IMG/VR virus record: IMGVR_UViG_3300031555_002904
Reading direction: 5' to 3' (one strand)
Length of the DNA: 64,000 bases
Origin: a virus
Taxonomy: Duplodnaviria > Heunggongvirae > Uroviricota > Caudoviricetes
The translations under genes were made by a program, and so were the position numbers. Within the stretch, counting starts at the first letter, position 1; every line of letters starts with the position of its first letter. The notes under the pieces are model-generated. The model did not search any database, was not told where the DNA came from, and saw only the letters and a program-made list of their open reading frames with translations. Positions 6,015 to 63,572 of this stretch are shown here, in pieces.

Positions 6015-7210
6015 TATGCTCCGCCTCCATTCAGAAATGAAGCGTCGGCCGCAGCTTCTTCATCTAAGAAATCATCAAAATCAGAGAAATCCTAATCTTT
6101 CAATGTAGCCTCTAAGTCATCTAAGCTGATTTCAACATCATCAATAATATCGGTCTCATCATTAGCCGCGTTATCTTTATCTTCTTTATCAATTTCACGA
6201 AGAGCCTTTTCAACCATGTTTGGTAGATTAGTTTCCTCTTCAATCAGAGTTCTTGTATATCTTTGCATATCCGCGATAGTCAAGTCAACTCTATCTTTTG
6301 GAGAATCAACATAGTATCTTTCAACATATCCTTCTTTTTCACACATTTCAATCAGCTCGCCAATTGAATCAATGAAATCACCAGATTCCGCTTTATTTTG
6401 AGCTGCTGTAAATTTACCAGACTTCATCAAACTGTCATAAACTTTACTCATCTTTTGGAAGCCCTCAATGTCGCCAATGTCGATTAATTGATTCGCCTTT
6501 AAAGATGTCTTACATACTAATTTCAAAGTATCAATGTGTCCGGCACCTTGAATATCATATGAGGCCATCATTTCCTCATATAGCTATTCTAATCTAATCC
6601 ACTCTTCTGGTTTATAGGTTTTACCCCATTTCAAACGAAGATAAGTTTTATCTTCCTCAGTCAAATCATCAACAAAGTCATCTTGACCGCCATTAATTTC
6701 TCCAAAATAATCTTCATTACCTTGAGCTAAGAATGGATTTTCTTCAACATAAACCGGCTCTTGTAACGGAGCCGTAGGTACGGGGATTGTAGATGTGGCG
6801 ATCGCTTGAGCGATTTCCGCAGCTTCATATCCCTAACGCTTCATAGTTTCTTCAATTTTTTTATTTGCAACTTCTTGCAAAAACTCAGTGTCTTTCCAAC
6901 GATAATCACGATATTGTTTTAATTTCATCTTTGATAAATATCTACCAAGAATAGTCATACCAGTTAATTTAGATTTATCTTTCGCATAACTAACTAATAA
7001 TTTATTCCACTCATCTGGTACATATGGGACATCACATTCTTGTAAAATCCATAAATAAGTATCAGGATTGAAATTATCAACATGCATTGTAATACACTTT
7101 TTACATTGTCTTAATTTACCATCAGGATATTTTTCTAAGTTATTTGAACTATAAAACTAAGAAGCGTCCATTGTTCTATTACATTTTTCACAGTAATAAC
7201 TTTCAGCCAT
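6014..7210 (-). CDS. Zn-finger protein upstream of TerL, possible terminase small subunit (398 aa, 4 TAG=Gln)
   Basis: CEKC/CKKC; TAG at 7157, 6833, 6584, 6092 all in frame; TAA stop overlaps the TerL ATG. Confidence 0.65.
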
Positions 7211-47456: not shown

Positions 47457-47633
47457 AAGACGGTAACAGCAATTATGACGAGCTTGTGGTGCCGCAGGTC
47501 GTTGGTTCGAGTCCAACCGTCCCTCCCATCACCTGGCAAGGTGGCGTAGGTGAACTACTAAGGGGACCTTCGGGTCCCTGATATGAGGGGCGTAGCTCAG
47601 CTGGATAGAGCAGCGTATGTCAAATTCCGTCTT
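47457..47633 (+). tRNA. Circularly permuted tRNA-His(GTG) within an ACAGCAA element
   Basis: 3' half 47482-47528 precedes 5' half 47585-47615; joining gives a 78-nt tRNA with G-1:C73. Confidence 0.7.
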
Positions 47634-48015
47634 GGCAAAATAAAAATCAAGGGCAAAAGTGCTTATTTGATTTTTATAAAAAAATATGATATAATATATA
47701 TGTAAGGTAAAGGAAATGTGAAAACTCTCCTCAAGAGAAATGACTCGACATTCTGCTAATGCCTCGAGGGTGAAGTACTTGAGAATAAGATCCATTTCTG
47801 AGAAGCTCTCATCAAGTTGACGCAGGTAGCAGCTGGTCCGGGACTTCGATCATCTTCTCACCTTACATATGTGTTATATCAACACAGAAAGGTAGAATCT
47901 CGTATACCTTGGGTGGGACCAAAAGTACGACGGCAGATGCAAGCGAGAAGTATCCGGGTCTAGCCATGGACTCATGTAACCGGGGAATACCCATCCCAAA
48001 ATGGCAACTAAATAT

Positions 48016-53962: not shown

Positions 53963-54238
53963 GCGACTTCTTGAATGAAGTGAGCCGACTACAAGATAGG
54001 TTCGGCGCGACGTTGAAGCAATACATTGGACTGTTTTCAGTAGTGTTGTGGAGTCTAATCTAGGGTTGTGCGGTTTCCACAAGACAGAGTAGGAGAAATC
54101 TGAAAGAAAACGCTCATATGCAGTTGATGGTCCGAGTGGGTTCGAGCCCCACAAACTGCATCGAGTGCGGTATACACGCACAAAATCTATATAGAGTGTC
54201 ATAGTGAAAGAATTAGCTACTCAATCACTATGATATAT

Positions 54239-54450: not shown

Positions 54451-54526
54451 GCGGCTGTGGCTCAGCTGGTAGAGCATCTGATTGCCATTCAGAAGGTCGC
54501 GGGTTCGAACCCCGTCAGCCGCTCCA
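54451..54526 (+). tRNA. tRNA-Gly(GCC)
   Basis: Cloverleaf, U73, CCA. Confidence 0.92.
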
Positions 54527-54527
54527 T

Positions 54528-54604
54528 GTGAGTGTAGCTTAGTTGGTTAAAGCGCCAGATTGTGGCTCTGGAGATCGGCGGTTCAAGTCCGCTCACTCAC
54601 CCCA
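54528..54604 (+). tRNA. tRNA-His(GTG)
   Basis: Cloverleaf, C73; G-1 not encoded. Confidence 0.9.
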
Positions 54605-59332: not shown

Positions 59333-59472
59333 GAGTGGACTGGCGGAATTGGTAGACGCACCGGACCGGAAACGAATAGTGTCTTGGTCTAAAGCCGCTA
59401 ACAGCAATTCAAATCGGACAGTAAATCCGGCGCCTTATTGGCTTCTTGGTTCAAGTCCAAGGTCCCTCACCA
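59333..59472 (+). tRNA. tRNA-Tyr(GTA)-like gene with a 53-nt ACAGCAA insert (intron-like)
   Basis: Removing 59364-59416 gives an 87-nt class II tRNA with CCGGA-CAGTAAA-TCCGG and ACCA. Confidence 0.65.
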
Positions 59473-62672: not shown

Positions 62673-62939
62673 ATGGCTAGTATTAAAGTTTTTTAGAATA
62701 ATCGCTACCAATCTCATTATGTTCAATTTGTAGCAGACACTGCAGATGATGTAAAACTTTTAAAGGTAGCAGAACTCGCTATGGGTAGTGAAGTATATGT
62801 TATTCAAGAAAAAAGAACTTATATTCTTGGTAGCGACAAACTCTGGTATTCTAAGGCGGTAAATGATGACGCAATTATTGAGTGTGATTGCGTTGAAGAA
62901 TCTACTATCTGGGAAGATTTGCCTCAACCCAATAATTGA
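62673..62939 (+). CDS. Hypothetical protein (88 aa, TAG=Gln)
   Basis: FVADTADD...AMGSEVYVI....YIL; needs read-through at codon 8. Confidence 0.6.
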
Positions 62940-62977
62940 CTTTATAAAAAATTTTTGATATAATATAATATAAGATA

Positions 62978-63106
62978 AAGGCATAAACAGCAATTTATTG
63001 ATTAAGCCTGCCAAGCCGGAAGTCGTAGGTTCGAATCCTACCGCCCCTGCCATATAGGGGTCGTAGCTCAGATGGTAGAGCGCCGTTAAATATCAAATTG
63101 TGCCTT
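62978..63106 (+). tRNA. Circularly permuted tRNA-Gly(GCC)-like gene within an ACAGCAA element
   Basis: 3' half 63006-63052 (with CCA) precedes 5' half 63056-63085; join gives CCGGC-CTGCCAA-GCCGG. Confidence 0.7.
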
Positions 63107-63115
63107 GTGGAATAT

Positions 63116-63190
63116 TCCGGTGTCGTTCAATGGCTAGGACGGCGGGCTCTAACCCCGCATATCTCTGTTCGAGTCAGAGCGCCGGTGCCA
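63116..63190 (+). tRNA. Amber suppressor tRNA (CTA), probably Gln
   Basis: GCGGG-CTCTAAC-CCCGC; mismatched 1:72, G73, CCA. Confidence 0.88.
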
Positions 63191-63265
63191 TGGGGGTTAG
63201 CGTAGCGGTAGCGCGGCGGTCTCTAAAACCGTTGTGGCTGGGTTCGAATCCCAGGCCCCCCGCCA
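63191..63265 (+). tRNA. Amber suppressor tRNA (CTA), probably Gln
   Basis: GCGGT-CTCTAAA-ACCGT; TGGGGGT acceptor as in the two tRNA-Gln genes; G73. Confidence 0.9.
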
Positions 63266-63324
63266 TTGTGCGGAAAGTTGATTTTTATAAAAAAATATGA
63301 TATAATATATATAGAAGATAAAGA

Positions 63325-63400
63325 AAGGCTCATACAGCAAATTTCACTTTTTCTAACCGACATAAAATTGGTAATGCTTGAGAGAAAAAAAATGAGCCTT
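63325..63400 (+). ncRNA. ACAGCAA element (short)
   Basis: AAGGCTCA/TGAGCCTT stem after a promoter. Confidence 0.6.
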
Positions 63401-63408
63401 GTAAATCT

Positions 63409-63495
63409 GCCGGCGTGGTGGAATAGGTAGACACCAGGGACTTAAAATCCCTTGGGCCTGTGCCCGTACCGGTTCGAGTCCGGTCGCCGGCACCA
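63409..63495 (+). tRNA. tRNA-Leu(TAA)
   Basis: Class II, CCA. Confidence 0.92.
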
Positions 63496-63572
63496 CTTAT
63501 CTTTATTGAAAGGATGTGTTTCCAATGTGGAGGTTGAGTGTCTTCTAACTACCGTAAAGGAGGTTAGAAGTA

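What the first reader, a model, noticed from the sequence alone, without database searches (positions are those of the whole stretch)
62978..63106. Second permuted tRNA (Gly-GCC) split at the same position, upstream of the amber suppressors
The 3' half (63006-63052) precedes the 5' half (63056-63085) with only 3 nt between them. Joining CCG to GCCTGCCAAGCCGG restores the anticodon arm, again after the third stem base. The flanks TTGAT/ATCAA pair, like TGAC/GTCA in the His copy. The same breakpoint in two unrelated tRNAs argues for a mechanism. The acceptor has a bulged U and G73, so charging is uncertain. It is the first unit after the promoter that also precedes both suppressor tRNAs.
Basis: partly seen in the sequence, partly recalled or inferred. 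Interest (0 to 1): 0.8.

Follow-up and report, generated by a model that had tools for sequence, protein, structure and literature searches.

The report
Handle-clamped inside-out tRNA mimic (Gly)
The "inside-out glycine tRNA" is really in the sequence, but it is one member of a widespread phage family of tRNA-shaped small RNAs closed by an ACAGCAA "handle" and encoded beside a Ro60-like ring protein, so it is most likely a Y-RNA-type tRNA mimic and not a tRNA gene that is spliced back together.

Summary
Observation confirmed. At 63006-63052 the 3' part of a tRNA (positions 30-76, CCA included) lies 3 nt upstream of its 5' part (63056-63085). Joined, ARAGORN calls tRNA-Gly(GCC); in native order or after shuffling it calls nothing.

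The 29/30 break is not a coincidence between unrelated tRNAs. It is the fixed architecture of one RNA family: terminal stem, unpaired ACAGCAA, second stem, then a whole tRNA body opened between 29 and 30. I parsed 38 distinct units from many phages. Their helices and the 15-48 tertiary pair co-vary. 34 of 38 close the acceptor stem with a short loop and no CCA.

A gene whose product folds like Ro60 (TROVE plus vWA) occurs in all 13 near-complete phage records carrying such units. Where it lies in the same fetched stretch, it is on the same strand, as close as 172 nt.

This unit lacks bacterial tRNA-Gly identity marks and duplicates an ordinary phage tRNA-Gly(GCC). The phage has no RtcB or splicing endonuclease.

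Best reading: a Y-RNA-like tRNA mimic, perhaps cut by RNase P into two paired pieces. This scan noted the same family in at least 35 other genomes.

The parts
62936..62964 (+). sigma-70-type promoter: TTGACT (62936-62941), 17-nt spacer with TG, TATAAT (62959-62964). The inferred start is about 62971-62973.
   Evidence: 11 of 12 matches, extended -10; sequence. The start site is inferred.
62978..62986 (+). Handle, outer stem P1, 5' strand (AAGGCAUAA). It pairs with 63098-63106.
   Evidence: P1 co-varies across the family: 24 distinct sequences in 38 units, always 7-10 bp.
62987..62993 (+). Unpaired ACAGCAA, the invariant word of the handle. It sits as a 7-nt bulge between P1 and P2.
   Evidence: invariant in all 30 aligned units.
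62994..63005 (+). Handle, inner stem P2, 5' strand and junction (UUUA UUGAU UAA).
   Evidence: TTGAT/ATCAA and TAA/TTA are complementary. The exact P2 register is inferred.
63006..63016 (+). Anticodon mini-hairpin: G30 C31, loop CUGCCAA (anticodon GCC at 63010-63012), G39 C40.
63017..63052 (+). Rest of the 3' part: C41-G43, variable loop AAGUC, T arm (63025-63041), acceptor 3' strand CGCCCCU (63042-63048), G73, CCA (63050-63052).
63053..63055 (+). 3-nt linker UAU. Together with G73 and CCA it closes the acceptor stem as a loop.
   Evidence: The paralogue in the other array has a 58-nt three-hairpin linker ending in the same UAU.
63056..63085 (+). 5' part: acceptor 5' strand A-GGGG(U)CG, U8 A9, D arm (63066-63081), G26, C27 C28 G29.
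63086..63097 (+). Handle, P2 3' strand (UUA AAU AUCAA A).
63098..63107 (+). Handle, P1 3' strand (UUGUGCCUU) plus the G that usually follows it.
   Evidence: 'G' follows P1 in 27 of 38 units.
63116..63265 (+). Two CUA-anticodon (amber suppressor) tRNAs, apparently co-transcribed downstream. RNase P cleavage at 63115/63116 would set the 3' end of the unit.
   Evidence: Co-transcription and the 3' end are inferred, since no promoter or terminator lies between them.

Best explanation
The unit is a small non-coding RNA of the Y-RNA kind, not a tRNA gene awaiting repair. It is transcribed from the promoter at 62936-62964 as the first RNA of the suppressor-tRNA operon. Its two ends pair into a 'handle': a 9-bp stem, an unpaired ACAGCAA, then a short second stem. 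Between the handle strands the RNA folds into a complete L-shaped tRNA body whose chain is opened between positions 29 and 30. The handle therefore leaves the anticodon stem as the third arm of a three-way junction. The anticodon loop (Gly, GCC), T arm, D arm and acceptor stem are displayed as in a tRNA.

The handle is the likely docking site of the phage's Ro60-like ring protein (DUF2828 + DUF7788, a TROVE-plus-vWA fold), encoded 6.5 kb downstream on the same strand. The tRNA-shaped part is the likely effector or bait for host or phage proteins that recognise tRNA, including ones that read the anticodon loop.

In this phage lineage the acceptor end carries CCA. RNase P probably cuts before the 5' part, as it does in Mycobacterium smegmatis YrlA. 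That would give a two-piece RNA held together by the acceptor stem and the handle. It is not rejoined and does not decode.

Shown: the anatomy, family membership, co-variation, the Ro60-like fold of the neighbouring protein, and its co-occurrence and synteny with such units. Inferred: binding of the protein to the handle, RNase P cleavage, and the bait function.
For: 1. Family. A pattern scan of IMG/VR and parsing gave 38 distinct units with the same layout from many phage contigs. ACAGCAA is invariant.

2. Co-variation. Acceptor 97% paired with six standard pair types at six of the seven positions (31 distinct stems). T stem 99.5%, D stem 100%. Pair 27-43 switches A-U / C-G / G-C. The tertiary pair 15-48 switches A-U (18 units) / G-C (17 units), so a tRNA L-shape is under selection.

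3. Closed acceptor. 34 of 38 units have no CCA, and the acceptor loop (discriminator plus linker) is 4-7 nt in 30 of them.

4. The same handle also encloses cargo with no anticodon arm, unpermuted tRNAs, or short AT-rich RNA. This fits a docking handle and does not fit a splice signal.

5. Partner protein. DUF2828/DUF7788 genes follow both tRNA arrays. The AlphaFold model has pLDDT 91.7 and pTM 0.92. Its 13 best PDB matches are all Ro60/TROVE structures over the full length, TM 0.33-0.59, probability 1.00.

6. Co-occurrence. All 13 phage records at least 90% complete that hold such units encode a homologue. None of 5 unrelated records does. In 11 of 33 loci found by the RNA pattern alone the gene is within 5 kb, always on the same strand, and 172-329 nt away in four.

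7. This unit specifically. It has A1-U72 and G73, whereas the phage's ordinary tRNA-Gly has GCGG... and U73. It has a bulged U. It duplicates the ordinary tRNA-Gly(GCC) at 54451-54526.

8. Precedent. YrlA Y RNAs have the same T arm, closed acceptor, D arm order. M. smegmatis YrlA is cut by RNase P and receives CCA (PMC4201824). The Ro60 of Thermus phage phiLo binds stem-bulge-stem RNAs encoded next to its gene (PMC12135203).
Against: No RNA or binding data were available.

The unit does not reach Rfam's YrlA threshold (33.5 bits against 69). The same model scores 29 bits on two ordinary adjacent tRNAs, so that hit is weak evidence. The handle word differs from the Ro60-binding motif of known bacterial Y RNAs (GNCGAAN0-1G). 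Pfam TROVE itself does not match in this genome.

Some features look designed for a real tRNA. The break leaves exactly 3 + 2 stem pairs with no spare base in every unit. The loops obey tRNA rules: U33 and a purine at 37 were required by my pattern, but G37 goes with G36 and A37 with all others in 38 of 38 units. Within clades the anticodon loop is conserved while acceptor stems change. The His unit has G-1:C73, and the Asp unit has G73 and C38. The two paralogous units here keep glycine anticodons (GCC and UCC). An Rnl2-like RNA ligase candidate exists at borderline score.
Confidence: 0.6

Rival explanations
1. It is a true permuted tRNA gene. The handle acts as a split intron. Both junctions are cut, C29 is ligated to G30 (through a circle or directly), and RNase P plus 3' trimming release a functional tRNA-Gly(GCC). 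The Ro60-like protein might serve as a chaperone, with a host RtcB or phage ligase doing the joining.
For: The halves restore a perfect 5-bp anticodon stem and 7-nt loop. Every unit breaks at the same bond with no extra base. The loops follow tRNA rules for positions 36 and 37 and are conserved within clades. CCA is encoded here. The His unit has G-1:C73. A class II tRNA-like gene at 59333-59472 carries the handle as a roughly 53-nt insert at the same site, which resembles the co-occurrence of intron-bearing and permuted tRNA genes in Cyanidioschyzon. There is a borderline RNA-ligase-like ORF.
Against: No tRNA splicing endonuclease or RtcB is encoded, and no protein-dependent tRNA splicing is known in bacteria. 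34 of 38 family members lack CCA and close the acceptor with a short loop. Acceptor stems and discriminators vary freely within one anticodon group, which is unlike chargeable isoacceptors. This unit lacks G1-C72, C2-G71 and U73 and has a bulged U, and its paralogue has a defective T stem. All four units of this record duplicate ordinary phage tRNAs. Two loops carry A34 anticodons for two-codon boxes (ATG, ATT), which are poor decoders. The same handle holds cargo that could never become a tRNA.
Confidence: 0.12
2. The handle is a generic leader or processing module of the phage's tRNA operons, for example a 5' stabiliser or an RNase III-type or other nuclease site. The tRNA-like cargo then serves only as a stable fold or an RNase P entry point. 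The link to the Ro60-like gene reflects shared ancestry of the phages, not binding.
For: Handles often start within a few bases of a promoter's start site and precede tRNAs. In relatives, the place ahead of the suppressor tRNA nearly always holds a handle module, whatever its cargo. Cargo is very variable. Many of the co-occurring records are related phages, so the counts are not independent.
Against: A leader needs neither a selected Levitt pair nor authentic anticodon loops. Gene and unit lie 172-329 nt apart on the same strand in four contigs found by the RNA pattern alone, the signature used to define Y RNAs. A stem, unpaired motif, stem layout next to the 5' end is how known Ro60 ligands are built.
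Confidence: 0.18
3. It is a decaying remnant: two truncated tandem tRNA genes or a rearranged pseudogene without function.
For: The acceptor stem has a bulged U. The paralogue has a defective T stem and a TCAGCAA handle variant. The Rfam YrlA model also scores ordinary adjacent tRNAs.
Against: The 5' strand pairs with the acceptor strand of the preceding half and not with a separate gene. The layout recurs in 38 distinct units with compensatory changes in every helix. It has its own promoter. Shuffled halves never give a tRNA (0 of 2000).
Confidence: 0.05

Closest known systems
YrlA-type Y RNAs of bacteria and mycobacteriophages, bound by Rsr/Ro60 (Rfam RF02553; Chen et al. 2014, PMC4201824)
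   Same: The 5' and 3' ends pair into a stem with a conserved unpaired motif near the 5' end. Inside lies a tRNA-like module in the order T arm, acceptor-like hairpin, D arm, with a co-varying 15-48 pair. The RNA is encoded on the same strand near a Ro60-type gene, often among tRNAs. M. smegmatis YrlA has a 7-bp acceptor, is cut by RNase P and gains CCA, giving two paired pieces.
   Different: The score is below Rfam's threshold (33.5 against 69 bits). The handle word is ACAGCAA, not GNCGAAN0-1G. The partner is a DUF2828/DUF7788 protein that matches Ro60 by fold only. This unit also keeps a full 7-nt anticodon loop and all five anticodon-stem pairs, with the handle leaving between 29 and 30. 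In YrlA the Ro-binding stem simply replaces the anticodon arm.
Ro60 of Thermus phage phiLo with its Yrl1/Yrl2 RNAs (PMC12135203; PDB 9KOP, 9L5Y)
   Same: A phage-encoded Ro60-fold protein with stem-bulge-stem RNAs encoded beside its gene. PDB 9KOP and 9L5Y are among the best structural matches of the protein here.
   Different: The phiLo RNAs carry a CGAA bulge, and no tRNA-like or anticodon-bearing module is reported for them. The proteins share only 12-14% identity in the structural alignment.
Circularly permuted tRNA genes of Cyanidioschyzon merolae, other algae and Thermofilum (named from my own knowledge: Soma et al. 2007; Chan et al. 2011)
   Same: The 3' half lies upstream of the 5' half with a short linker after CCA, the flanks pair, and intron-bearing relatives break at the same site.
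   Different: Those genes are matured by the bulge-helix-bulge endonuclease and a ligase through a circular intermediate, in eukaryotes and archaea. Here the host-type promoters are bacterial, no such enzymes are encoded, most relatives lack CCA, and the flanks carry a conserved protein-type handle.
Two-piece (permuted) tmRNA of alpha-proteobacteria and cyanobacteria (from my own knowledge: Keiler et al. 2000)
   Same: It is a bacterial precedent for a permuted tRNA-like gene whose transcript is cut at the acceptor and functions as two base-paired pieces without ligation.
   Different: There is no tag reading frame or pseudoknots. ARAGORN reports no tmRNA.
Class I RNAs of dictyostelid amoebae (Rfam RF01414; PMC7919456)
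   Same: A short co-varying stem joins the 5' and 3' ends, an unpaired conserved 11-nt motif lies next to the 5' strand, and the rest is variable. The paper gives T, C, C, A, A at motif positions 3, 6, 9, 10 and 11. That fits the consensus CTTACAGCAA seen here. The full amoebal motif is from my memory only.
   Different: The RF01414 model gave only 16 bits (E 3.9) on the neighbouring short-cargo handle RNA at 63326-63401 and nothing on this unit. No tRNA cargo is described for Class I RNAs. This is a lead, not a demonstrated relationship.

Membership tests
Permuted tRNA genes (BHB-dependent, Cyanidioschyzon/archaeal type) | The 3' half lies upstream of the 5' half, and the joined halves give a full cloverleaf. 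| tested here: met
   ARAGORN tRNA-Gly GCC on the joined halves; none in native order, 0 of 2000 shuffles.
Permuted tRNA genes (BHB-dependent, Cyanidioschyzon/archaeal type) | A splicing endonuclease and an RNA ligase are available to cut and join the junction. | tested here: not met
   No PF01974, RtcB or T4 Rnl1 in the 402-kb record. The Rnl1 search rang in no control genome either, so it is uninformative. There is only a borderline Rnl2-like ORF. The host genome is unknown.
Permuted tRNA genes (BHB-dependent, Cyanidioschyzon/archaeal type) | A bulge-helix-bulge motif lies at the junction. | not tested
   The flanks form stem, 7-nt bulge, stem instead. No formal BHB scan was run.
Permuted tRNA genes (BHB-dependent, Cyanidioschyzon/archaeal type) | A circular intermediate or a mature joined tRNA is seen in RNA. 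| not testable with these tools
YrlA Y RNA (Rfam RF02553) | The covariance-model score reaches the gathering threshold (69 bits). | tested here: not met
   33.5 bits, model positions 23-86 only. Two ordinary adjacent tRNAs score 29 bits.
YrlA Y RNA (Rfam RF02553) | A terminal stem formed by the 5' and 3' ends encloses T arm, closed acceptor-like hairpin and D arm, with tRNA tertiary pairs. | tested here: met
   (15-48 co-variation: 18 A-U, 17 G-C).
YrlA Y RNA (Rfam RF02553) | The motif GNCGAAN0-1G lies near the 5' end. | tested here: not met
   ACAGCAA occupies that place.
YrlA Y RNA (Rfam RF02553) | The RNA is encoded within about 4 kb of a Ro60 (TROVE) gene on the same strand. | tested here: inconclusive
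   Pfam TROVE is absent. A protein with a Ro60 fold lies 6.5 kb downstream on the same strand. In other phages it lies 172 nt to 4.7 kb away on the same strand in 11 of 11 loci that hold it.
Functional bacterial tRNA-Gly | A contiguous gene with Gly identity elements: G1-C72, C2-G71, G3-C70, U73, C35, C36 (E. coli rules, from established knowledge). | tested here: not met
   The gene is not contiguous. It has A1-U72 (or G1-U72 with a U5-C68 mismatch), G2-C71 and G73. Only C35, C36 and G3-C70 fit. The phage's ordinary tRNA-Gly genes do carry GCGG... and U73.
Two-piece tmRNA | A permuted tRNA-like domain together with a tag reading frame. | tested here: not met
   ARAGORN reports no tmRNA in the window. 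There is no frame within the 130-nt unit.
Dictyostelid Class I RNA (Rfam RF01414) | The covariance-model score reaches the gathering threshold (41.5 bits). | tested here: not met
   There was no hit on this unit. The neighbouring handle RNA at 63326-63401 scored 16.1 bits, E 3.9.

The most novel reading that the evidence does not exclude
These are genuine permuted (and, at 59333-59472, interrupted) tRNA genes of bacterial viruses. The stem-ACAGCAA-stem handle would be a new kind of protein-recognised tRNA intron. A Ro60-like RNP would hold the two ends while the chain is cut at 29/30 and sealed, by a host RtcB or the phage's Rnl2-like ligase. This would yield extra decoding tRNAs, or anticodon-nuclease baits that can be repaired. 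It would be the first protein-dependent tRNA splicing and first permuted tRNA maturation outside archaea and eukaryotes.
Probability: 0.1. Interest if true: 0.95.

Novelty: new variant of a known kind. Interest (0 to 1): 0.62.

Why it matters
Y RNAs with a tRNA-like module are known from bacteria and a few phages, but what the module does is unknown. This family has three new features. Its partner is Ro60-like by fold only (DUF2828/DUF7788). Its docking word, ACAGCAA, differs from the known one. And it displays a whole tRNA with an authentic, clade-conserved anticodon loop, while the acceptor end is free to vary and is usually closed.

That combination points to recognition of the anticodon end by something other than the ribosome, such as a modification enzyme, a synthetase or an anticodon nuclease. 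The question is directly testable with many natural variants: Thr, Pro, Lys, Asp, His, Gly, Asn and Arg loops. It also bears on how phages with large tRNA sets and stop-codon recoding manage or protect tRNAs.

For annotation, it explains a class of 'broken' or 'inside-out' tRNA-like sequences that tRNA finders miss. It also warns against calling them permuted tRNA genes.

Tried and rejected

2. Exhaustive rotation with ARAGORN to find permuted tRNAs. ARAGORN is too tolerant and gave hundreds of solutions per site. I replaced it with explicit stem rules.

3. GenBank phages (INPHARED), distant blastn of 62940-63500. Only the ordinary tRNA-Leu matched, and there was no relative of the unit.

4. 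Rfam at gathering thresholds gave only tRNA, ROOL and drum. At E-value thresholds there were YrlA sub-threshold hits, one of them on two ordinary adjacent tRNAs, so I treat them as weak.

5. Pfam TROVE, RtcB, T4 Rnl1 and tRNA-intron endonuclease in the record: none found. The Rnl1 search rang in no control genome, so it shows nothing.

6. PDB by sequence for the DUF2828 protein: nothing. Only the fold search found Ro60.

7. Literature. 'permuted tRNA' + phage and 'DUF2828' gave nothing relevant. The three-families tRNA-mimic preprint describes other motifs.

8. A search for the 56-nt linker element elsewhere found it only in the His unit and the array-1 Gly unit.

9. Considered and rejected: a group I or II intron (flanks too short, no core); a tmRNA; chance (shuffles); tandem tRNA remnants (the acceptor strands of the two halves pair and co-vary family-wide).

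Full report
WHAT IS THERE

The window is the minus strand of positions 205292-269291 of a 402,311-bp IMG/VR virus record. It holds 38 ARAGORN tRNAs, a ROOL RNA and a drum RNA.

At the finding's coordinates the sequence reads, 5' to 3':
- a strong sigma-70-type promoter (TTGACT, 17 nt, TG-n-TATAAT; 62936-62964);
- AAGGCAUAA (62978-86), then ACAGCAA (62987-93), then UUUAUUGAUUAA (62994-63005);
- tRNA positions 30-76 including CCA (63006-63052);
- UAU (63053-55);
- tRNA positions 1-29 (63056-63085);
- UUAAAUAUCAAA (63086-97), then UUGUGCCUU (63098-63106).

Nine bases further on, two CUA-anticodon tRNAs begin (63116-63265).

Joining the halves gives a 76-nt tRNA-Gly(GCC) by ARAGORN. Its 5-bp anticodon stem has three pairs from the 5' part and two from the 3' part. 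Nothing is called in native order or in 2000 shuffles. RNAfold pairs the outer nine bases.

IT IS ONE OF A FAMILY, AND THAT EXPLAINS THE COMMON BREAK

A scan for T arms outside annotated tRNAs, a scan for ACAGCAA with a closing stem and a rule-based scan gave three results.

(a) The record contains two diverged, syntenic tRNA arrays.

(b) About thirty 'stem + ACAGCAA ... stem' modules lie on the transcribed strand. Their cargo is of several kinds:
- whole tRNA bodies broken at 29/30 (Gly here, His at 47457-47634, and Asp and Pro in the other array);
- bodies broken after the anticodon arm (55851 region);
- T arm, acceptor and D arm with no anticodon arm (56761 region);
- unpermuted tRNAs (52840, 55318);
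- short AT-rich RNA (54617, 58587, 63334).
A class II tRNA-like gene at about 59333-59472 has the handle as an insert at the same 29/30 site.

(c) The four 29/30 units are 71-87% identical to each other. That is as close as, or closer than, their likeness to the phage's ordinary tRNAs of the same anticodon. The shared breakpoint is therefore inherited, not an independent event in unrelated tRNAs.

The paralogue of this unit in the other array (genome 3095-2900; L004:1389-1584, minus strand) has these features:
- the same break;
- a UCC (also glycine) loop;
- the handle variant UCAGCAA;
- an imperfect T stem;
- an acceptor AGGGGAG/CUCCCCU, which shows that the window copy carries a one-base insertion (the bulged U);
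- a 58-nt three-hairpin linker where the window copy has only UAU.
That linker is nearly identical to the one in the His unit and shows a compensatory C-G to A-U change in its UUCG hairpin.

THE FAMILY IS WIDESPREAD AND STRUCTURALLY CONSTRAINED

A pattern requiring ACAGCAA, a 2-bp/7-nt/2-bp hairpin, CG and a T arm found 69 stretches in IMG/VR. Parsing gave 38 distinct complete units.

Helix statistics:
- Acceptor: 97% paired, with six standard pair types at six of the seven positions and 31 distinct stems.
- T stem: 99.5% paired.
- D stem: 100% paired.
- Pair 27-43: A-U, C-G or G-C.
- Tertiary pair 15-48: A-U in 18 units, G-C in 17.

P1 is 7-10 bp with 24 distinct sequences, and ACAGCAA lies 0-2 nt after it. 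In a MAFFT alignment ACAGCAA, U8 A9, the T-loop and the D-loop GG are invariant.

Two further regularities matter. First, 34 of 38 units have no CCA, and the acceptor loop (discriminator plus linker) is 4-7 nt in 30 of them. CCA occurs only in this phage's lineage. Second, the loops look like real anticodon loops. G36 always goes with G37 and all other units have A37, in 38 of 38. Within clades the loop is constant (UGU 13 units, UGG 5, CGG 4) while acceptor stems and discriminators change freely.

One caveat applies. My pattern fixed the 29/30 layout, U33 and R37, so those features are not independent findings.

THE PARTNER PROTEIN

Pfam TROVE and RtcB are absent from the record. Following a lead from earlier notes of this scan, I found DUF2828 genes just downstream of both tRNA arrays on the same strand. 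The protein also matches DUF7788 and, weakly, vWA, and it has a DxSxS motif.

With 100 diverse homologues AlphaFold gave pLDDT 91.7 and pTM 0.92. Foldseek's 13 best PDB matches are all Ro60/TROVE structures over the whole length, with probability 1.00 and TM 0.33-0.59. They include Xenopus Ro, human Ro60, Deinococcus Rsr and Thermus phage phiLo Ro60.

Among the records that carry 29/30 units:
- All 13 that are at least 90% complete encode a homologue. Eight match Pfam DUF2828, and the other five match the family profile at E 1e-27 to 1e-56.
- Five unrelated records that matched the DNA pattern by chance have none.
- In 11 of 33 loci fetched by the RNA pattern alone, the gene lies within 5 kb and always on the same strand. 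In four it is only 172-329 nt away.

This is the criterion by which Y RNAs were first assigned to Ro60 (PMC4201824). Many of these phages are related, so the counts overstate independence.

HOW IT MOST LIKELY WORKS

Known Y RNAs consist of a terminal stem with an unpaired conserved motif on the 5' strand, which docks Ro60, and a variable effector module. In bacterial YrlA that module is a tRNA mimic in exactly the order seen here. YrlA is modified by tRNA enzymes. In M. smegmatis it is cut by RNase P and given CCA, leaving two paired halves. A phage Ro60 binds stem-bulge-stem RNAs encoded beside its gene and recruits host PNPase.

The simplest reading follows. The unit at 62978-63106 is such an RNA. 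The handle docks the Ro60-like protein. The tRNA body, complete with a glycine anticodon loop, is the effector or bait. In this lineage the CCA and 7-bp acceptor make RNase P opening likely.

Several facts argue against decoding by this unit. It lacks the bacterial Gly identity set and has a bulged U. An ordinary tRNA-Gly(GCC) exists at 54451-54526. A helix branching from the anticodon stem at 29/30 would clash with the ribosomal decoding sites. That last point is an inference from established ribosome structure.

WHAT KEEPS THE SPLICING IDEA ALIVE

- The 3 + 2 restoration is exact.
- The anticodon loops are authentic and conserved.
- The His unit has G-1:C73, and the Asp unit has G73 and C38.
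- An insert-type relative breaks at the same bond.
- There is a borderline Rnl2-like ligase ORF.

All of these are also what a full-length tRNA mimic aimed at anticodon-reading proteins would need. None shows joining. I put the rejoining model at about 0.12.

CAUTIONS

The Rfam YrlA hit on this unit (33.5 bits, E 1.5e-5 in a 521-nt search) is well below threshold. The model gives 29 bits to the ordinary adjacent tRNA-Gly/tRNA-His pair at 54469-54587. It therefore shows topology, not membership.

No RNA data could be obtained. Protein-RNA binding is inferred from fold, synteny and analogy only.

RELATION TO EARLIER NOTES OF THIS SCAN

The same handle family, with the same Ro60-like reading, was noted for the His unit and other stretches of this genome and in at least 35 other genomes. 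I re-derived the family, the fold and the synteny here independently.

One of those notes links the handle to dictyostelid Class I RNAs. The published description fits: a short terminal stem plus an 11-nt unpaired motif with T, C, C, A, A at positions 3, 6, 9, 10 and 11. That matches the consensus CTTACAGCAA found here. But the Rfam model gives only 16 bits on a neighbouring module, so this remains a lead.

VERDICT

The interpretation as a tRNA to be rejoined is not supported. The unit is a member of an uncatalogued Y-RNA-like family: a new variant of a known kind, notable for displaying a complete tRNA with an authentic anticodon loop.

Noticed in passing
whole record G000 (genome 199-18164 and 202648-222606; DUF2828 genes at 401507-402307 and 198941-199690): The 402-kb record holds two syntenic but diverged (about 75-90% identical) tRNA arrays, each followed by a DUF2828 gene about 202.5 kb apart. 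Relatives are about 180-205 kb. The record looks like two related ~200-kb phage genomes joined head to tail (an assembly chimera or concatemer), not one 400-kb genome.
   Followed up: partly
window 47521-47576 (inside the His unit) and genome 3009-2952 (array-1 Gly-UCC unit; inside L004:1389-1584): A 56-58-nt element of three small hairpins (one with a UUCG loop and a compensatory C-G to A-U change between copies) sits between CCA and the 5' part in two different units. It occurs nowhere else in the record or in the fetched loci. In the window's Gly unit it is exactly absent, leaving only its last three bases, UAU.
   Followed up: partly
window 54469-54587: The Rfam YrlA model scores 29 bits on the 3' part of the ordinary tRNA-Gly plus the 5' part of the adjacent tRNA-His. 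Sub-threshold YrlA hits inside tRNA arrays can therefore be artefacts.
   Followed up: yes
genome 186296-187714, minus strand (L162:1369-2787:-): A 472-aa ORF has a PHA02142 OB-fold domain (30.4 bits) and a borderline RNA_ligase (Rnl2-type) match (26.5 bits against a cut-off of 27). It is a possible phage RNA ligase, and I found it in only one half of the record.
   Followed up: partly
L027, about 200 nt upstream of the CUA tRNA at 6171: In a related phage the handle module ahead of the suppressor tRNA (variant CTGCAA) holds only an anticodon-like arm with the loop CUUCCAA plus a T arm, with no acceptor or D arm. That loop is the same Gly-UCC loop as in the array-1 paralogue. In other relatives the same position holds a GUC-loop 29/30 unit (L016), a unit without an anticodon arm (L085) or short AT-rich cargo.
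   Followed up: partly
window 63325-63401: The next promoter (63278-63306) drives another handle RNA (AAGGCUCAU ACAGCAA ... AUGAGCCUU) with a 52-nt AT-rich cargo, just before tRNA-Leu(UAA). It gave a weak Rfam hit to Dictyostelium Class I RNA (16.1 bits, E 3.9).
   Followed up: partly
window 53886, 53591, 49494, 55044 (tRNA genes): The phage encodes several tRNAs with A at position 34 (Thr-AGU, Ser-AGA, Leu-AAG, Arg-ACG). Some family units in other phages have A34 loops (AGG, AGU, AUG, AUU). This suggests inosine-type decoding or an unusual tRNA set in this phage group.
   Followed up: no
window 54008-54152: The drum RNA match (54008-54118) is followed at once by an orphan T-arm-like hairpin (54136-54152) that belongs to no called tRNA.
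   Followed up: no
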